From contig ML992510.1 in the NCBI GenBank assembly GCA_010093995.1, positions 633,504-685,976 of the forward strand: DNA of 52,473 bases. Direction: 5' to 3'. The position numbers were made by a program, and so were the translations under genes. The notes below the pieces were generated by a model. That model saw nothing but the letters and a program-made list of their open reading frames with translations. It was not told where the DNA came from and made no database searches. This document shows, in pieces, positions 17,153 to 27,915 of this stretch. Position 1 is the first letter of the stretch. The number at the start of each line of letters is the position of its first letter. The DNA is from Elsinoe ampelina (taxonomy: Eukaryota).

Positions 17153-18252
17153 TTCGGCGGTCTCCCTTCGGTCTTTGGAGTCTCCACAGAGGTACATGTT
17201 TGCACAGTATATTCGAACACGATCACGATGATATAACGACGGTGCTTTGGAAGGTACGAGCATGATAGAACGATTTTGTGTGGCTATCTCCAAGCAGATC
17301 ATTATCAGGGAGTTCAGACGGGAGAGGAATAATTTTTAGATACCCAAATCGCATCAAGTTCAATAACTGCGAAGACTACACCGTCCCTCTTCCTGTCGTG
17401 CATAAGATTTCCATAGTCTTTATCGTTGGCACAGAAGCGCAAAGTATCGCGACCAAGCGGACTACCGAGATTTTTAGGTTTGAGCAATGTCATTTCTGGT
17501 AGGATCTATAGTACAATTACCAGACCTTTTTAGTGTTTAAGCACGAATGACAAACTTTCAGATTTGCTAAATAAACCTGGTAGTATCTATATTAATGCCA
17601 GATACCAGAGCAATTCGGGCCTGATCGGCAAAGAGAAGCAGTTCGGCACTGCTGCCCATGCGGCCTGAACTCGGACAAGTTTCTTTGCTCGAGCGACCTT
17701 GATTCCTTCTCGCACTGTCCCACTGTGGCTGCACTTGTCCAGCACACATCCGGCTAGGGATGCATGCAGGGCACGTTGCGAGGCCTGAACTGAACGCAGG
17801 TACCGGCTTTACCGACCACCTCGAAGATGTTGACCACTGTCGCAGGACGACGTCTTCCTCCTTCTACAGTAGCTGGCATGGACGACCAGCAATTCAGAAG
17901 ACACCCGCCCTCCAAGACATCATTCTTGGATGACTCGCGAAGGTCGCTTGTGTCTTGACATTGCTGCCATGGCCAGGGGGTTTTCTGTGATTGGCAGCGC
18001 AGATTGACATGATCCGCGCTAATGGTCTGTCGGTCCCATGAGATGTCCGGATGGGCAAGCCACCACTAATTTGCTGCTCGTCTCAAGAACCACCATTTCA
18101 CCGGCTCTCGGATGCAAGACGAGATGTGTCGTCAGCTATAAGCGTAGGTCGTGACTTTCCCCAGTCGTTGTATCTTTTCGTTCTTGTCGAGCGATCTTGC
18201 AATTGCGCCGTCAAGCTGTAGTGTGTGCTGGAAAGGGTGCCCGCATGCAAAC

Positions 18253-20131
18253 ATGGGTGAGAACAACGTGCAAAGGCACACTGCAATGACAAGCTGACCC
18301 TTATCAGCGTTAAACACTCACTATACCATCTCGACATATGGTGCGCCAGAGCAGACGCTCGCGACCTGTAATGTTTATTTTACGCCCGCATACATCACAT
18401 GGACGACTGCACCGAGCACATTACCCGTTGTAGGTACTGCATACTTATATGTAGATCTCGACAAGAACACCACATCCACTTCAGTGACATGTACACCATC
18501 AATAGTCGAAGATATCAAGAGCAAGGGCGGCAATCTGGGCCAATGGATGGGAGCATCCATGGACGAGAATTGTACCCTCAGAGCTCCGTACTGGAATGCC
18601 AACATGCGGAATGATACCATTACCACAGCGTAAGCTTCTCAAAGGCAAAGTACAATGGAAGCTAATTACGGTCGGCAGGACATGGCCTGGACCAGTGACC
18701 TTGATGGATCTGGGAAATCGGATACGATTTTTCGGTAACAATGTCAAGAACTACCAGTCCTTTGTGACACTCCCATCCGGTATCCCGATCTACTACACCT
18801 ACTCGGACATCATTCAAGACGTTGGTATTACATCCTATCAGATCCCTGCAAAGAACGGCAGCTGGTACACTACGAAGCGAACGACATTCACAATGCCCGG
18901 ATTGAGCAAAATCTTTCCAGACGTACCCGATCTGAGTCAGAATTGCACGACCGTCTTCTTTGAAACGTCGCCCAACACCCTCACGCATGCCAACTTTCTC
19001 ACCCAAATCAGTACATTGCCAAGATCAGCTCCACAAGGTCAGGTGACGCCTCCGGTAGCAGCACCACAGATCCCGGCTCCCCGGCCACAGCCAGCGAATC
19101 CTCTACCTTCGCCGTCAATCATAGCCCCTGCGCCTGCACCCGCCGTTCCAACCAGTAGACCGAGCACAGGCCCAAGTACTGAAGACAGCAACCCCGACGC
19201 AGGCACCGGCACCGGCAACAACGCAGGTAACAGCCTCCCGCAGGCCGACAACCCCGCCGTCTCCACCGGCCCGGCCACCAACCCCAACCAACCTCACCCA
19301 CCACCACCAGCCAACATCCCCACCCCAGCGTCCCCCCTCACGACCCGCCCCGCCCTCATCCTCCCCAACTCCCAAACCCTCCTCCAAGGCAGCGGCCCCG
19401 CCACCGTGTCCGACCGCTTGATCTTCTTCGACAACTCCGGCACAGTCTACATCGCGCCGTCGCCGACGAACGGTGGCGTCCCGGACGCGGCCAAGGTGAC
19501 GGCTGTGCCGGTCGGGGAGGTGAGGATGCTGGGAGGGGTGGATGCTTTGGGGGTTTGGTTGGAGGTTACTGCTGGGGGAGTAGGGGTAGGAGGAGGGGGA
19601 GGGCAAGGGGGGGGTCAAGGGAACGAGGGTGGGAGTGGTGGGCTGCAGGGGGCAGGGTCTGGTGGTGCAAGCGCGGCGGGATCGGGATCGGGTGTGGGTG
19701 TGGAAACGGGCGGGAAGGGGGCGTCGTTGGCTGGGACGATCAGTCAGGCTTTGAGTAGTTTCAGTGTCTGGATTTTGAGCGGGCTGGGGGCGAGCGTGGC
19801 TGCGAATGGGTCGAGGGTGGGGAGTGCAGATAGTGGAGCGCAAGCAGCGGAGGAAGCGGGGAGTGGTTCCTCTGGGTCTACGAGCTCTGGAGGCGGGCTG
19901 CTGAGTGGTGGCTCTTCTGGGAGCAGTGAGGATGTATCGGCTAGGCAGTCAGGGTCGATGGGGAAGGTCTCAAGGACAACGTCCTTTGCAGCTGCATCTG
20001 GGACGCCGAGCGGCCCTGGTGGAGGAGGAGCTACGTCTGCGACATCACCGTCGACTGGCGGAGCAGGTAGTGTTGGTGCCGGATTATCACTGCTTGGACT
20101 CGTCGTTGGGATAGTGGCTTATGCATTATGA
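18253..20131 (+). CDS. Tandem family copy 1: uncharacterised 4-Cys-domain, mucin-stalk, GPI-like-tail protein (~592 aa)
   Basis: Exons 18253-18256, 18308-18629, 18679-20131 (frame-consistent). Motifs VGTAYLYVDLDKNTTSTSVTC, ATWPGP, MPGLSKIFPDVPDLSQNC, PALILPNSQTL, WILSGLGAS; hydrophobic tail. Confidence 0.8.
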
Positions 20132-20759
20132 GGTGGTATAGGATTAGGAATAATGTCTACGGTCACGTGCTCAAGATGATGGTACAACTCCGCTGTTTCT
20201 TCCGAAAGCTCCCATCTGCAACCTTCCGAGGACAACTGGGCCTCGAGCAGGACGCACTCGATGTGAAGTCTTGCTTCAGCAATGGCATCAGCGTTTTCAG
20301 TGTGGTATGGTGATTGCAACGACTCGTGCATCACGACAATGGCCAGCCACTGGTAGTACCTGGTCACGACTTATGGCGACCAGCAGACACCATCGTTCCG
20401 CGCGGCCCGTCACCACTCAAGATCAGCTTGAACGGAAGAGCCAACGTCGTGTGCAATGAGAGCGTAAGGCGATTGACTGTCAGGTCGTGCGCCCTCCCTT
20501 CTCACAAATAACCGCCGGATCGTGCCCGCCATGAAATACGCTAGGGGCACCGCTACCAAAGTAGGCTTTGACCACGCCACATTGGCAGCGCTCCATTTAG
20601 ATTACATCCTGCAAGGGAAATCACTAGCTTCCCGGCCTCAGCAAATGCTTGGAGGTGCTCCAATGACTTGTCATATCCCGCTCTGTAGCCGCTCAAGGTG
20701 GTTTTAGGTCGACTGGACTTGTCAATTCTAACCTCCGCAAACGATACATCTGACTGACC

Positions 20760-21837
20760 ATGGGTATGGCATCAAGAAGTGAAATTTGCACGAGATCTCG
20801 CTGACTGTGATTAGCGCTCGCATTGAACATGACAAGCCAGGTCCAGGCGTCACCTTCCGGACTTGCTCCTGTAACGTTGCGGATGGGAAGCTCAGTCACC
20901 AGGATCATCACTCCACGTCCATCGCCGACACAGTATGGACCCGTCACGCACTGTGTTGGCTTTATGAGCCCCGCTATAGTACTATGGACACCTGCACCCA
21001 CCGACATTCCTCCTGTGGGGACGACCTATCTCTACGTTGACCCGAATGTCAACACTACCTCAACCTCCGTGACTTGCACGCAATCTGTATATGACGAATA
21101 CAAGACAAAACTCCTGGGCGGCTTTGGCGCCTTCTATGGTGGCACGATGAACGAGCAGTGTGCTTTCCTTGCACCTTACTGGAATGGCGAGTATAGAGAT
21201 AAGGAGATCGAGATGGCGTAAGTTGCTGCCAATGGGTGTGATCAGATCCAACGAAGGCATACTGACGATGCAAAGAACGTACCCTGGCCCTTCGACCATG
21301 TTCGAGATCGGTTATCAGATCCAGTTCGAGTACTGGGGTCCTTCGTACGACGGCAAATGGGATTGGGAGACCATCATCGCCCCTGACGGACCTAGGTACT
21401 ACACCGGAGAGATTATCACTTCGACAGGGCTATCCGGACCAGGTATCCCATGGGCGACAATGTGGTCACTACCAAGCCTCTCCAAAATGTTCCCAGATGT
21501 GCCCGATCTGTCCTCTTGCACACTTATTCACTTCCGGACCACGCCCAACTCGTTGACCTTCGCGCGTTTCTTGACAGAGGCTATCACGCTACCAAAGTCC
21601 GCCGCGGGAAGTCTTACAATACCTTCTGCACCATCATCGACTGTGGATCCGGGCGTGCGTCCTACGGTGAACCAACCTTCGCGGTCTGGTACCGAGATGC
21701 AGCCAGCTCCAACGCCAGGTTCATCGGGCCTGGGACAGCAGCCACGACCGACTGCGACTGCATCAAGTCCAGGATCTGTGCCAAGTAGTGGTGATCATGA
21801 ACAGTCGAACACTGGCCCAGACTTGCCCTCTCGACCT

Positions 21838-21890
<53 letters not shown>

Positions 21891-22458
21891 AAGTCCTACA
21901 AGACCTGCCTTGGTCCTGCCAGGGGGACAAATTGTTCGCGCAGGCGCTGCCCCAGCGACTGTTTCCGGTCGACTCGTTTTTGTAGATAATCAAGGGACTG
22001 TACATATCGCCCCAACACCTGCGCCGGGCCAGAGGATAGAAGAGCCATACGCTCAAGCGACCGCCATTCCACTCGAGCAAGTTATTCGCGAAAGAGGCAT
22101 GCAAGCACTCGGCATCTGGATCCCGGCACAGGAAGCATCAATCGCAGACGACTCGCCCACACCCAGTAAGGAGGGGATGGCTTCTCATGATCTAACAGAC
22201 TCGCCACTCTCCCCAGCAGGACATCTCAGCAACTCCATCTCCAGTTTCGCCAGCTGGATCATAAGCGGGCTAGGAGCAAGCATCGACCGCACCTCAAGCG
22301 TCAAAAACAACAACGGTTCTTCCACGAGTCAATCCCCCGGGTCCAGCCGTAACAACAGCGTCGCGTCCTTCACAGGGGCAGGTGCAGCCACTCACCACCC
22401 GAGAAGAAAGTCAATGGCGCTCTTTCTAGCGTTTGCCGTGCCGTGGCTTTGTCTGTAG
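20760..22458 (+). CDS. Tandem family copy 2 (~529 aa), contains polyQ
   Basis: Exons 20760-20763, 20815-21217, 21276-22458. Motifs VGTTYLYVDPNVNTTSTSVTC, ATYPGP, LPSLSKMFPDVPDLSSC, PALVLPGGQ, WIISGLGAS, FTGAG plus hydrophobic tail. Confidence 0.82.
21838..21888 (+). repeat. (CAG)17 microsatellite encoding polyglutamine
   Basis: 17 perfect CAG units, in frame, in the stalk of copy 2. Confidence 0.97.
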
Positions 22459-23076
22459 TCTCCAGCTGGAAGAGTGATTGGGAAAAAGTCTGCGATAGTG
22501 TGCCCGCTCGTTGCAATCTTCCACAAGCGACCTCGACTCGTGCAGGTGTTTTGTTCCTGGTTGAGGCTGAGAAAGGGGCCAACATGATTGGTGGGTCTGC
22601 TCGGAGGACAGGTTTGGCGTGTCGCGATTTTCCGGCGGGCGCGAAACTCCAAATGGATCGTGAACGCAAGGTCCGGGACGGGATCCTTCTCTTCTCGACT
22701 TCGTTTCTGTGTCGAGAGAGCCATTGGATCTGTGCGATATCTGATGCTGGACGCGCATGCCAGGTCGCTTGGTGTCTATGTGTAGTGTGACGACCTTGTC
22801 TGCAGGATTATCAGGTACGCTATGCAGCAATGTCATGCGTGGTAGGCGCTACTGCAGGTTTGCATAGCCCTGGTTATGGTGCATTGCTACGCCGCATTGG
22901 CATACCGCCACAAAAATAAATGAGTCGTCTCAAGGTGGTCTAGTTGACCAGAGTCGTCGGCGCTTGCATCTTGACGACCCATCGCCAAATCTCGATAGCG
23001 ATAGACACCATGGTAGCCGATTGTAGTCAAAAGGTGTGTCTGATCTCGGTCATTTTTGAGACGGCACCCACTCGAC

Positions 23077-24785
23077 ATGTCTCTCAATCTTACCATTGGT
23101 GAATTGAAATGCCTATATATCATGTGATAGATACTGTTGGCTAATTATTATCGCAGGAGTGCCGGTGATACCCTCGAGCTTCTGGACCGGAGTCTTCCAA
23201 CCTCCGCAGACGGAGCCACCGTGGAAAGTCGACGCCGGTTGTAACATCATCTTGTGGCCTGCGTACATGAGATGGATAAACGCAGCCGATGTGCCGCCTC
23301 TCGGGACGACGTACTTATACGTGGACCCAGACTCGGAGTCGACCTCCACGTCTGTCACCTGCGACACGTCCTTGTTCATGGAGTACAAGACGAAGCTGTT
23401 CTCTCCAGGATTCTACGATACATATGGCACAATTGACGACAACTGTAGCATCACTCTACCTTATCGAGGTCGTGAGTGGACGGCTGTGAGGTCAACGAAT
23501 GCGTATGTCTGACCACCACGATAACACCAGCTGGCTGACGGAGCATAGCACATGGCCTGGACCAGAGTGGCTATTTGACGTTGGTGACGAGATAGCCTGG
23601 GAAGGAGCATGGGTGACAGGCTCATCTCTTGAGATGATTGAGCGCGGTACTTCGACTCTGCCTGCAGCACCACAATGGTACACATGGAATGATGTCTACT
23701 ATACTCGTGGCGTGGTGTCTGGTGTTGATAAGCTTGCTGGTGGCTACGTGATGCCAGGTCTCAGCAAGATGTATCCGGATCTGTCGATCTTGAGCTCTTG
23801 CACCCTGGTACAGTGGGCTACGAACCCGAACACTCTCAGATACGCACACTTTCTTACCGAGACACGGACTTCGCCACGGACAGCTTCTGGTCATCTGACT
23901 ACGCTTCCGATTCCAGAGTCGGTGCAGACAACAACTGTAGCCCCTGTTCCAGTGCCACAACCCACGCAGCCACATGCTTCCCCATCGCAAAGCCAGGCTC
24001 AAGTCGGGCCCGCACCATCTCCAACCAGCAGTCCCCGACCAGTGATCACACCAGCTCAGCCCGGACGACCCCTTGTTCCCACTGGCACCGCCTCGCCAGC
24101 TTCTTCCCGACCCTCCAACACTGGTAGCAACAACCTAGCCAAACAAGAAGCCAATGACCCAGCCAATCCCGTAGCCGCCAACGCCATCCCCAACGCTGCA
24201 CCTCCCCGCATCACATCCGCCCCCGCCCTCGTAGTCCCCGCCTCCAACGGCGCCCTCCAAACCCTCCGACCAGGTAGCTCCCCCGTCACCGTATCAGGCC
24301 ACATCATCTCCCTCGACACCTCCAGCGTGGCGCACGTTGTGTCGCCTAGTACGCAGCAAGGTCGCGCCCCGGAGACAGTAGCGATCAGCTTGGATGACAT
24401 CGCTCGGGTCGGAGCCATTCAGGTACAGGGGACGAGGATTGCAGCTTTTGGGATTATGACGTACGAAGAGGTGCAGGTTGACGGGACAGGGGAAGGTGGT
24501 GCGGGCTCGACGACTGGGGGTGCGCAAGGGAGCGGGGGAATCGGCACGGTTGCGGATCGAGTCGGGGGGAGGGTCTCGGGTATTGGGGCTTGGATCAGGA
24601 GTGGGTTGGGGATTGCGCGGGTTGGCGGAGGTGGAGGTGGTAGTGTAGGTGGTGCGGGCGCGAGAGGGAATAGCACGTCTGGAAGTGGTGCGATGGCGTT
24701 CACAGGGAAAGGAGGGAGGAGGCGGGTTGGGATGGTGTCGATAGCAATGATCGTTGCAGCGATCGGGTGGACATTCGCGAGGTAG
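23077..24785 (+). CDS. Tandem family copy 3 (~534 aa)
   Basis: Exons 23077-23098, 23157-23502, 23549-24785. Motifs LGTTYLYVDPDSESTSTSVTC, ATWPGP, MPGLSKMYPDLSILSSC, PALVVP, WIRSGLG, FTGKG plus hydrophobic tail. Confidence 0.82.
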
Positions 24786-25169
24786 ATGACATTAATCCTC
24801 TGCAGACTACTGTATAGTTTATAAGGTACATGTTGTAGGTCCTAGGATGTCGGAAGCATTTGAATCGATGACTTCGAGGTTACCCTAATGTTGGAACTTC
24901 CGCAGCATTACCGACCAATCGACTGACACTGTCGAATGCTCGACTCATGCGATTTGACGGATTCGCTGAGAAGCATCCAAAGTCGAATCGAAAAGTGGCA
25001 CGGTTAAGCTCTGCTACGCCGCCTTCACAAGACGCTATAATATATTCTCGTTTCGGACCTGACTAGCGTTCCAGCCGCAGCGCCTACCCGCATCAACCAA
25101 AATCATTCAAGAACAACACGACCGCCGACATGGCCGAAATCCCTCATCCCGTTTGTACATCGTCTCGCG

Positions 25170-26899
25170 ATGCGTAAGTCAATCCAGAGGAGACAAACGA
25201 CGCACATTTACTGACGACCATATCACAGCGACCCAAACCATAACCCGACCGATGTGGACCAACCTCAATGGTACCAGCATACAAGTCCCAAGCACAATCA
25301 CACTCGACCCATAACCAACCTACGGCCCCGTGAAAAGCTGCGACCTCTTCCTCAAACCACTGTGGAATCAGTGGACCACTGCCGCCGCGAATTTCTCCGC
25401 AGTCGGCACCACCTACCTCTACATCGACCCCAACGTGAACACGACCAGCACTTCAGTGACATGCACGCCTTCCGTCCTATCGCAGGTACCCGACCAGTAC
25501 GGACGACCATACGGCAACCGATTCCCAGTCACCATCGATGACGAATGCAACTTCTACGTCTCGGTCCTCGCTCCCGCCGGACGAGGAAACAGTCTGACAG
25601 CCATGTAAGTCCACCCCATCTCCCGCGTCACCCCAGTCAACGACTCACCAACCTCCCAGGTCCTACGATCAAGGGAAAACCCAGCTCGACATCGGCCCCG
25701 TCGTCACATTCCAGTACTACGGCGGCACCAGGACCGACATCGGAGGCTACGAAGCCTGGCGATGGTCGACCTGGTTCCCGGCCGGACCGCAACCGTACAC
25801 CGGCGTGGTGTCGCAGTCGACGAAACTCAAGCCGGACGGGTCGATAGACGAGACGTTCTGGCACATGCCCGATTTGAGTATCATGTACCCTGATATACCG
25901 GACCTTACGTCTTGCAAGGGTATCCATATGGAGACGACGCCGAATCAGCTTACTGCGGCGAGGTTCCTGACGGAGTATATCACGTTGCCCAAGGCGGTGG
26001 CGGGAGGTTTGACGGTGCCGCCTATGGGCCAGCCGAGTGCTGCGCCGGTGCCGAGACCGAATAATCCGGCGCCGACAGCGTCGAGTAGTCCGATCGGTGG
26101 ATCTGAAGCCGGGGCGTCTGTCAAAGAGCCCTCGGTCGGTCAAGGCTCTTCGCCGACGTCGAGTGGCGGGCAAGGGCAGCCTGCTGCGCCGGGCGGGTCG
26201 TCACCAGCAGATGGTGTAGTGGTCCCAGGACAGAACGGAGGCAGCAATACTGGTGGGAGTGGTGGTAGCAATGCTGGCGGAGCCAACAATGCTGACGGGG
26301 CAGGCAGACCAGCGTCAGGAGGCCCTTCGCCACCGAGAACGACAGTTCCAGCTCTGATCCTGCCCGACCGCCAGACATTGAGGGCAGGGGCTCCTGCTTC
26401 CACTGTCTCTGGGCACGTGATCTCACTGGGACAAGATGGACTCGTGCACGTTCGGCCTGCAGAAGAGGATAGCAGTACTCCAGGATCGCAAAGCCCGGAG
26501 GTGGTGTTGAGCCTCCCCCAGATTGCAGCCGCTGGTGGCATCGAGGTCGACGGCGTCAAGATTCCTGCTTTCGGTACAGTTGTAGTCGAGACGACTTCTG
26601 GTGAGCAGGTGTCTGTTGGTCAAAGTGGTAGTCCACAGTCTCCTGATGCAGGTGGGGAGATAGCACCAACACCTGGTTCGCGAGTCGGTCAGGCTATATC
26701 AGGTATAGGAGCCTGGGTCATGAGCGGACTCGGAGCGTCGGGATCGAAGAACACACAAACCAGTGGGCCCTCAGGCAACCCATCAAGTCGACCAGGATCG
26801 AACTCGACCATCGTGCCATTCACCGGCGCCGCGTCAAGACCAGTCGCAGCGCTGGCAGCGCTCGGCAGTGCCCTCTTCGTAGTCATATGTATACTATAA
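25170..26899 (+). pseudogene. Tandem family copy 4, interrupted by in-frame TAA at codon 30
   Basis: Exons 25170-25173, 25229-25604, 25660-26899. Motifs VGTTYLYIDPNVNTTSTSVTC, MPDLSIMYPDIPDLTSC, PALILPDRQTL, WVMSGLGAS, FTGAA tail. TAA at 25312-25314 lies in the homologous frame. Confidence 0.7.
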
Positions 26900-27915
26900 T
26901 CCAAAATGTCATCAAAGGAATGGATGGCTTCGGATATCGCTCCAAAGGATCACGAGACGTGACGGCCGAGGAAAGCAAAAAGACGGGGAGGAGTAGTGGA
27001 GACTTCATCTGCTTAGGGCATCCTATGAACCGTGTGCTGTGGGAAGTCCGGAGCCGAGGTCTGCTGGTCCTCACTGGAGGAGCTGGATGGTGGGGGTGGA
27101 TTTAGTCCGGATCGCGATGTGGGATGGGCCTGTCATCTGCTGCTAGCTCGTCGAGGCGCGAGGGGGGCGATGGGGCTTTGCGGCGTGTGTCATCGCGCAG
27201 GCTATTGAGGTGTCGGTATGACTGTATGGGATAGACCATACGATGTGGAAACTTTTGCTCGTCAAACTGAGCATTGACTGCTCATTCGAAATTGAAAACT
27301 GGTGCGACTGTGCCGTTGTGAAAAGATCAGCGTCAGATGACGCGGGATCCGTCAGTGCAAGCCCAGGGCAAGCCTCCGATTTTTAAGCTTGTCAGCCGCA
27401 GACGTAGGTACTCTAAGGCCCAGAGTGTGCCATGGTACACGGTACAGTACCTTGCGATGAAACTGGCTTGCTGCTGTATGTTCTCTGTGTGATTGACATG
27501 AGAGCTGCAGCAGCAGCGTTGACCCTGCGGAGGACTTTTTGCTTTTGCTTCTCAGATCGTGCAAATCATTGGCATACTCGTCCTGGTACAAGGGCAAGCT
27601 ATCGTAGATCTGACATGGAAAAAGGTGTGACAAGGATCCCATCCGTCCACGGCGGATAAACGCACGCCGAGTTGGTTCTCCGCACCATGACCATGCAGAT
27701 CATGACTGCGGGACCTCCTTTGGAGCTCCAGTAAGATGCGGAGTCTCTCGTTGGAGTCTCAGAGTCTTGTCGTGAGCACGGTGAGCACGGGAACGAGCTT
27801 GGCCCTTCATAAGCCCCCGTCTTGCACCCAGAAGCTTTTGCTTCGCATTCCTCAGCCTTTTCTTGACGAAGCTTGTCACGCCTGTTTACCCACCAGAAAC
27901 ACGCGACTGCCCACC

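What the first reader, a model, noticed from the sequence alone, without database searches (positions are those of the whole stretch)
18253..26899. Head-to-tail array of four diverged paralogues of an unrecognised adhesin-like surface-protein family
Seen: four same-strand units of ~2.1-2.5 kb share one architecture once spliced, and the ORF track breaks each into unrelated-looking fragments. (1) An N-terminal domain with four aligned Cys and conserved blocks C-x5-P-x4-W, GT[TA]YLY[VI]D..STSVTC, [DN][DE]xC, T[WY]PGP (lost in copy 4) and [ML]PxLSx[IM][FY]PD...C...TxPNxLxxAxFLT; the segments between these blocks are very variable and aromatic-rich. (2) A Pro/Ser/Gln linker. (3) A second module PALxxP..Q..R.G..P.TVSG..I..D..G.Vh. 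(4) A Gly/Ser spacer, an amphipathic W[IV]xSGLG motif and a (F)TG-small-hydrophobic tail resembling a GPI signal. A phase-2 intron lies at the same position in all four. Established: N-terminal binding domain + S/T/P stalk + GPI is the layout of fungal adhesins (Epa/Flo/Als). Inference: a locally expanded, diversified surface recognition/adhesion family with a domain I cannot assign to any named family.
Basis: partly seen in the sequence, partly recalled or inferred. Interest (0 to 1): 0.85.

Follow-up and report, generated by a model that had tools for sequence, protein, structure and literature searches.

The report
Leaderless fungal surface-protein gene array
Four neighbouring genes of an Elsinoe-type fungus belong to an unnamed family that looks like lipid-anchored surface glycoproteins, yet most members appear to lack the export signal such proteins normally need, so they may reach the cell surface by an unusual route; this is inferred from sequence and untested.

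Summary
The array is real: four same-strand, two-intron paralogues with a ~200-aa four-cysteine domain, Pro/Ser/Gly stalk, second ~80-aa module, amphipathic helix and GPI-like tail. RNA contigs show 7 of 8 modelled introns. Copy 4 has an in-frame stop at codon 30, and its first intron was not seen spliced. The genome holds 12 members; E. fawcettii has six consecutive ones; named relatives are all Dothideomycetidae. No Pfam family passed; a confident model (pLDDT 90) found no clear solved fold. Yet N-glycosylation sequons are kept at the extreme N-terminus (23 of 27 lineages; shuffles 12.4) and just before the tail (17 of 18). Best reading: old, functionally fixed GPI-anchored surface glycoproteins that work like Epa/Flo/Als without being members, and enter the ER through C-terminal signals. 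The 'variable' segments are ~86% identical between orthologues, so this is not ongoing antigenic variation. Adhesion is unproven.

The parts
18253..20131 (+). Copy 1 gene, exons 18253-18256, 18308-18629, 18679-20131; 592 aa; intact
   Evidence: model; both introns seen as joints in RNA contigs; E. fawcettii orthologue P0009, 85% over the domain
20760..22458 (+). Copy 2 gene, exons 20760-20763, 20815-21217, 21276-22458; 529 aa; intact; CAG/polyGln run at 21838-21889
   Evidence: orthologue P0001, 80% over the domain; in-frame stop 2 codons before the ATG
23077..24785 (+). Copy 3 gene, exons 23077-23098, 23157-23502, 23549-24785; 534 aa; intact
25170..26899 (+). Copy 4, exons 25170-25173, 25229-25604, 25660-26899; interrupted by an in-frame stop; transcribed; probable pseudogene or N-truncated product
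25312..25314 (+). In-frame TAA at codon 30 of copy 4
   Evidence: no other letter listed in 4 of 4 laid runs
18257..18307 (+). Intron 1 (phase 1) after the ATG micro-exon; equivalents at 20764-20814, 23099-23156 and 25174-25228 (last not seen spliced)
18630..18678 (+). Intron 2 (phase 2) inside the domain; equivalents at 21218-21275, 23503-23548 and 25605-25659
   Evidence: an intron at the matching place appears in metagenome relatives, read by eye
18367..19018 (+). Four-Cys beta-rich domain of copy 1 (copy 2 20952-21591; copy 3 23240-23873; copy 4 25339-25987), each split by intron 2
   Evidence: AlphaFold2 of the copy-4 domain pLDDT 90.4, pTM 0.77
26339..26590 (+). Second module, ~80 aa, small beta fold with one helix (copy 1 19340-19561; copy 2 21898-22131; copy 3 24213-24461)
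   Evidence: model pLDDT 83.7
26681..26737 (+). Amphipathic W[IV]xSGLG helix, 55-114 aa before the C-terminus (copy 1 19736-19792; copy 2 22222-22278; copy 3 24558-24614)
   Evidence: mean hydropathy 0.76-1.21, hydrophobic moment 0.95-1.3
26819..26899 (+). GPI-signal-like tail: (F)TG, small residues, spacer, terminal hydrophobic stretch (copy 1 20051-20131; copy 2 22369-22458; copy 3 24699-24785)
   Evidence: 23-26 aa follow the Gly; no GPI predictor was available

Best explanation
An old tandem array (three intact genes, one interrupted) of a Dothideomycetidae family of GPI-anchored, N- and O-glycosylated cell-surface proteins, expanded in Myriangiales. Shown: gene structure, transcription and splicing, family range, conserved Cys and sequons, a confidently predicted beta-rich domain, and no typical signal peptide by a hydropathy heuristic. 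Inferred step 1: the whole chain up to the tail reaches the ER lumen, because sequons are conserved at the very N-terminus, in the domain and next to the tail, and the four Cys look like two disulfides. Inferred step 2: with no cleavable leader, targeting relies on the C-terminal hydrophobic signal, perhaps helped by the amphipathic helix 50-115 aa upstream, through SND/GET-type targeting and Sec61/62/63 import; the tail is then exchanged for GPI. Inferred step 3: the stalk lifts the four-Cys domain off the membrane or wall, and its aromatic-rich middle, fixed within each paralogue lineage, gives each copy its own binding preference (wall glycan, neighbouring hyphae or plant surface). It works like Epa/Flo/Als but is not a member.
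For: Splicing: 7 of 8 introns. Sequons in the first 27 aa: 23 of 27 lineage representatives against a shuffle mean of 12.4 and maximum of 22 in 5000 shuffles; before the tail 17 of 18 against 5.6; 29 of 39 N-terminal Asn in sequons (0.74; S/T 0.37) against 22 of 154 (0.14; S/T 0.14) in six non-secreted window ORFs. One domain sequon in 22 of 41 rows. Two Pseudocercospora homologues carry a clear signal peptide ahead of the same domain (P0033, P0040; hhalign 95%, E 2.6e-8). [FY]TG tails in 24 of 36 proteins. Orthologue conservation of the variable middle. C-terminal GPI signals steer ER entry via GET/SND in proteins that also have an N-terminal signal (PMC9520029, passages).
Against: No protein-level data. 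No SignalP or GPI predictor could be run; copy 3 (1.88) and L012 (1.9) come close to the weaker control signal peptide (1.95) in the heuristic. Copy 1 has no sequon in its first 27 aa, and its tail lacks the F of FTG. [quoted passage not shown] Copies 2 and 3 have basic residues just before the tail, as tail-anchored proteins often do. Representatives share ancestry, so shuffle counts overstate independence. Nothing tested binding.
Confidence: 0.5

Rival explanations
1. Same leaderless GPI surface glycoproteins, but structural or protective wall and matrix components (or sensors) rather than adhesins; the domain is a scaffold or oligomerisation unit.
For: Relatives occur in non-pathogens such as Cryoendolithus antarcticus (lifestyle recalled). 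No long tandem repeats. All three intact copies are transcribed in one run (X1).
Against: Paralogue-specific, aromatic-rich, orthologue-conserved middle segments and 12 copies in one genome fit distinct binding partners better than one structural role.
Confidence: 0.22
2. Ordinary GPI proteins whose signal peptide is hidden: an unseen upstream or trans-spliced exon joining at the shared phase-1 intron, a non-AUG extension, or a weak uncleaved N-terminal signal.
For: A phase-1 intron follows the ATG in 10 of 12 members, and the N-termini look like mature ends of secreted proteins. In-frame upstream stretches of 23-43 codons exist for copies 1 and 4, L009, L015 and L016. Some metagenome loci have hydrophobic in-frame stretches upstream (L022, L024/L025). 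Contigs drop rare isoforms, and 1 of 16 joints was not shown.
Against: In-frame stops lie 2, 6, 10 and 11 codons before the ATG in copy 2, L017, L014 and copy 3, and 6 and 3 codons before it in L018 and L019. RNA joints link each micro-exon, with 114-255+ nt of colinear upstream sequence for copies 2 and 3; no foreign loose end is listed at the acceptors. 9 of 11 metagenome loci have the ATG in the same exon as the first Cys, with no intron 1.
Confidence: 0.15
3. Tail-anchored membrane proteins with the whole N-terminal part in the cytosol.
For: No signal peptide plus one C-terminal hydrophobic stretch is the tail-anchor pattern (PMC8998515, passages); basic residues precede the tail in copies 2 and 3.
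Against: A conserved sequon immediately N-terminal to the tail (17 of 18) and at the N-terminus (23 of 27), four near-invariant Cys and signal-peptide-bearing homologues have no use in the cytosol.
Confidence: 0.09
4. A cassette or polyprotein system: copies get a leader by recombination into an expression site (Pneumocystis msg-I type), or one copy's tail serves as the next copy's signal.
For: Leaderless GPI genes in arrays are the msg-I pattern (PMC5676039, passages). Public models fuse neighbouring copies (P0005, P0004), and one RNA contig spans copy 2's 3' part and copy 3.
Against: No shared 5' element: no identical 10-mer in 3 or more of 9 upstream regions, and the best ungapped repeats between copies are 73-95% alike and lie mostly in coding blocks. 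Each intact copy has its own ATG exon, splicing and stop. None of the 12 members found has a clear leader. Copy 1 and the 8 dispersed members have no family copy directly upstream.
Confidence: 0.04

Closest known systems
GPI-anchored yeast adhesins (C. glabrata Epa, S. cerevisiae Flo, C. albicans Als)
   Same: Folded beta-rich Cys-containing N-terminal domain, low-complexity S/T/P/G stalk, sequons, GPI-type tail, paralogue expansion with divergent N-terminal domains (features from PMC6023273, passages).
   Different: No N-terminal secretion signal; no long tandem repeats; 530-700 aa with ~20% S+T; no sequence match to their domains in Pfam or PDB; extra second module and amphipathic helix.
Pneumocystis Msg family I (UCS/CRJE expression-site system)
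   Same: Fungal multigene family whose members carry a GPI signal but no signal peptide (PMC5676039, passages).
   Different: Msg-I genes lack promoter and start and share an identical 33-bp junction; these genes have their own ATG exon, are spliced from their own loci and share no such element.
GPI proteins targeted by GET/SND through their C-terminal signal
   Same: [quoted passage not shown]
   Different: The proteins studied there keep an N-terminal signal sequence; here none is evident.
Uncharacterised Dothideomycetidae proteins (E. fawcettii D9617_5g068610-068660; S. murrayae CAC42_5911; Cladosporium fusiforme Q7P37_006905; Fulvia fulva CLAFUR5_07747; P. fijiensis MYCFIDRAFT_172747)
   Same: True homologues of the domain.
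   Different: Hypothetical or carrying unrelated automatic names; several are mis-fused or truncated; two Pseudocercospora members have a signal peptide.

Membership tests
Epa/Flo/Als-type GPI adhesins | N-terminal secretion signal | tested here: not met
   Best 10-aa Kyte-Doolittle window in the first 35 aa: 0.82, 0.88, 1.88, 0.89 for copies 1-4, hydrophobic runs of 3-6 aa; window controls 2.11 and 1.95 with runs of 12-18 aa. Heuristic only, not SignalP.
Epa/Flo/Als-type GPI adhesins | Recognised N-terminal domain family (PA14, Ig-like, FnIII) by sequence | tested here: not met
   No Pfam family at curated cut-off for 8 exon pieces, 9 whole domains or 7 full-length homologues; 0 PDB sequences at E<=10 with the profile.
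Epa/Flo/Als-type GPI adhesins | PA14, Ig-like or FnIII fold | tested here: inconclusive
   Confident beta-rich model; no such family listed in Foldseek or VIA-align (best Z 2.5, 47 aligned, rmsd 3.6). An unlisted family is not excluded.
Epa/Flo/Als-type GPI adhesins | Ser/Thr-rich tandem repeats | tested here: not met
   Tandem Repeats Finder gave 4 rows in 18000-27200: three of 2.0-2.3 short copies in copy 1 and one CAG run in copy 2.
Epa/Flo/Als-type GPI adhesins | Low-complexity glycosylatable stalk | tested here: met
   S+T 0.20-0.22, P 0.11-0.12, G 0.09-0.19 after the domain.
GPI-anchored proteins | C-terminal GPI-attachment signal (small omega residues, spacer, terminal hydrophobic stretch) | tested here: inconclusive
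   Pattern present in 4 of 4 copies (23-26 aa after the Gly, terminal 15-aa hydropathy 2.1-2.8); no predictor or experiment available.
Epa/Flo/Als-type GPI adhesins | Ligand binding or adhesion activity | not testable with these tools
   Needs display, deletion or binding assays.
Pneumocystis Msg-I | Identical 5' recombination element and a single leader-bearing expression site | tested here: not met
   No shared 10-mer in 3 or more of 9 upstream regions; no clear leader among 12 members; copies are spliced from their own ATG exon.
Tail-anchored proteins | Cytosolic N-terminal domain | tested here: inconclusive
   Conserved sequons and Cys argue against it, but topology was not measured.

The most novel reading that the evidence does not exclude
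A natural fungal family of GPI-anchored surface proteins that has dispensed with the N-terminal signal peptide: a ~500-residue ectodomain, glycosylated up to its first residues, is imported into the ER using only C-terminal signals (GPI signal, perhaps with the conserved amphipathic helix), and it displays a beta-rich domain of undescribed fold with paralogue-specific ligands.
Probability: 0.35. Interest if true: 0.87.

Novelty: new variant of a known kind. Interest (0 to 1): 0.64.

Why it matters
Secretome and GPI inventories usually rely on a signal peptide; in F. graminearum 58 of 205 predicted GPI proteins lacked one and were not carried forward (PMC3843709, passages). This family gives sequence evidence that some such proteins may be real surface proteins, and a natural substrate for testing whether a C-terminal GPI signal alone can drive import of a long ectodomain. 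It also offers a candidate surface family, with an unassigned domain, for Dothideomycetidae, where few adhesion molecules are described (PMC6023273, abstract and passages).

Tried and rejected
Pfam: nothing at cut-off; a faint PapC_C hit (E 0.027) and DUF2028 (E 0.27, 1 of 9 members) were rejected. Fold searches of the domain model found no match at E<=0.001 in PDB or BFVD; VIA-align gave 9 of 48161 chains at Z>=2, best 2.5. For the second module, Foldseek found none and VIA-align's best was Z 5.1 (FHA and DUF1312, rmsd 3.3-3.7), within the background the tool describes. These blanks do not show a new fold. ESM Atlas gave only unnamed Ascomycota clusters (0.87; 0.90), with no sequences to test. 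The third protein search covered only 1543-4405 aa proteins and is uninformative. The C25 hit (L013) is spurious. An upstream motif (GCTGGACG in 4 of 16 regions) did not exceed shuffles. RIP indices of the copies match the window. No Rfam match. No run is on record as RNA; the four laid were judged RNA-derived because introns of both flanking genes are skipped; depth was not used to rank genes. Papers: ten searches listed no description of this family; one search returned 0 papers. The locus tags were absent from the text and 10 supplements of PMC7259788; PMC8295512 and PMC12941528 had no passage on GPI or adhesins (term searches). Most subscription papers are outside the library. A recalled resemblance to a wider group of uncharacterised Pezizomycotina wall proteins could not be tested.
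Full report
Setting. The window is fungal, with short GT-AG introns. The array lies between a Zn2Cys6 transcription factor gene (Pfam) and a gene that reads like a sugar transporter (by eye; one exon gave no Pfam hit). The closest named proteins are from Elsinoe, in Myriangiales, Dothideomycetidae.

Gene models. Four + strand genes were modelled at 18253-20131, 20760-22458, 23077-24785 and 25170-26899. Each has a 4-22 nt ATG micro-exon, a phase-1 intron, and a phase-2 intron at one aligned position inside the domain. I laid 4 of the 7 runs found. None is on record as RNA, but introns of both flanking genes are skipped in three of them (X1-X3). Among the 15 of 16 joints shown, 7 of my 8 introns appear with GT..AG ends. 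X1 may be the genome's own sample; X2 and X3 are one other study. Copy 4 has an in-frame TAA at 25312-25314, and no other letter is listed there in the 4 runs. Its intron 1 is not among the joints shown, and contig pieces of all 4 runs run through it unspliced. Its intron 2 is spliced in X3 and retained in X1's contig. The public model P0005 fuses copies 3 and 4 and avoids the stop by another intron, which the joints shown do not support. Copy 4 is most likely a transcribed pseudogene or makes a truncated product.

Architecture. Spliced domains align with E 1e-24 to 1e-52 at 31-46% identity. C, W, P and T positions are invariant or nearly so across 29 sequences. AlphaFold2 gave a confident, mostly beta model of the copy-4 domain (pLDDT 90.4, pTM 0.77, 29 sequences) and a fair model of the second module (83.7). 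Pairing of Cys1-Cys4 and Cys2-Cys3 is my inference and was not read from coordinates. After the stalk (S+T about 0.2) come an amphipathic, non-transmembrane helix and a GPI-like tail. No Pfam family or PDB sequence matched; fold searches were inconclusive.

Family. The genome has 12 members: the four here and eight dispersed (one of the 13 hits was dropped as spurious). A profile of nine domains found 53 of 1.84 billion representatives at E<=0.001. I looked up 30 of them. The names returned are Elsinoe, Sphaceloma, Cladosporium, Cryoendolithus, Fulvia, Pseudocercospora and Dothistroma; three lineages checked are Dothideomycetidae, and the rest I place there from recall. E. fawcettii has six consecutive members, D9617_5g068610-068660, and three more at 8g051510-051530. 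In a 42-row tree the four copies group with the four E. fawcettii array members included and with S. murrayae P0015 (95/94; the clade also holds P0054 and P0063). Copy 1 pairs with P0009 (85%) and copy 2 with P0001 (80%). The variable middle is 62/71 and 55/64 identical in those pairs but 11/63 to 22/63 between paralogues. The duplications therefore predate the species split and each copy's variable part is conserved, which fits fixed specialisation rather than antigenic variation.

The missed oddity. No copy has a typical signal peptide. The best 10-aa hydropathy in the first 35 aa is 0.82, 0.88, 1.88 and 0.89, against 2.11 and 1.95 for two window controls. Dispersed members give 0.52-1.49, and L012 1.9 (L010's first exon was mis-set and corrected). 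Of 26 public full-length-looking proteins, 24 score 1.68 or less and two Pseudocercospora proteins score 2.58 and 2.68. One of the two, P0040, aligns with the domain profile at 95% probability. A metagenome scan returned 11 loci from 60 pattern matches, some near-duplicates. In 9 of 11 the ATG sits in the same exon as the first Cys, with no leader (0.62-1.77) and a sequon at position 14-20; L020 and L021 showed no such start and were left out. In-frame stops 2-11 codons upstream exclude a simple extension for copy 2, copy 3, L014 and L017, but not for copies 1 and 4, L009, L015 and L016. RNA joints for copies 2 and 3 carry 114-255+ nt of colinear upstream sequence; copy 1 has only 25 nt. This rests on a heuristic, not SignalP.

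Evidence for a luminal chain. Among 27 lineage representatives, 23 have N-x-S/T in the first 27 residues (shuffle mean 12.4, maximum 22, 0 of 5000 reach 23). Copy 1 is a miss, although its orthologue has one. Of the 18 with a usable [FY]TG tail (9 left out: no such tail, or fused annotation), 17 have a sequon within 14 residues before it (shuffle mean 5.6). In six non-secreted window ORFs Asn fall in sequons at the background rate. Shared ancestry inflates these counts, but the sites are kept at 20-45% overall identity. Together with four Cys and the two leader-bearing homologues, this argues that the chain is glycosylated from its first residues to the tail.

Mechanism. I infer ER entry by the C-terminal signal. 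The GPI-attachment sequence is known to select GET or SND targeting in proteins that also have an N-terminal signal (PMC9520029, passages). Against this, signal-less N-out anchors in a human survey translocate under about 40 residues (PMC6269167, passage), so importing about 500 residues this way would be unusual. The helix 46-179 aa from the C-terminus in 28 of 36 proteins could help, but it also occurs in leader-bearing P0033. At the surface the stalk would present the domain, whose aromatic-rich, paralogue-specific middle is the likely binding face. No binding was tested.

Comparison and verdict. It works like Epa/Flo/Als but fails their tests for signal peptide, named domain and tandem repeats (PMC6023273, passages). 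It resembles Pneumocystis msg-I in being leaderless but lacks a shared junction element (PMC5676039, passages). Two earlier notes of this scan on other genomes raised a polyprotein reading; intact stops and leaderless single-copy members argue against it here. Ten paper searches listed no description of the family. I rate it a new variant of a known kind, interest 0.64; leaderless GPI import, if shown, would deserve about 0.87.

Noticed in passing
window:21838-21889: Perfect (CAG)17 run giving a polyGln tract in copy 2's stalk, absent from the E. fawcettii orthologue P0001; a candidate for length variation between strains.
   Followed up: no
window:21899-23097: One RNA contig runs unbroken from the 3' part of copy 2 across the spacer into copy 3 (X1): overlapping or read-through transcripts, or assembly of neighbours.
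   Followed up: partly
window:25024-25031: Copy-4 RNA contigs of three runs begin at 25024 and a fourth at 25031, a weak hint of a start; several short uORFs precede the domain in the intron-retaining form.
   Followed up: partly
P0002 (E. fawcettii D9617_5g068650): The closest relative of copy 4 is also annotated without the first half of the domain; annotation error or parallel truncation.
   Followed up: no
P0004, P0005, P0007, P0018, P0042, P0054: Public models fuse neighbouring genes or carry unrelated automatic names such as THO complex subunit 2, Programmed cell death protein 6, sec1 and Indoleamine 2,3-dioxygenase.
   Followed up: partly
window:31338-31910 (-): Small ORF with a signal-peptide-like start (about 176 aa) and no Pfam hit: an uncharacterised secreted protein.
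   Followed up: no
window:12216-13481 (+): AA9 lytic polysaccharide monooxygenase with a signal peptide and an S/A/P-rich C-terminal extension.
   Followed up: partly
L014, L015, L018 and window:22745-22756: GCTGGACGC occurs 90-330 nt upstream of four family ATGs; not above shuffles.
   Followed up: yes
window:51001-52000: GC falls to 0.37 at the window's end, perhaps an AT-rich repeat relic.
   Followed up: no
L020, L021: Metagenome relatives whose N-terminal frame seems broken before the conserved Trp block; possible pseudogenes.
   Followed up: no
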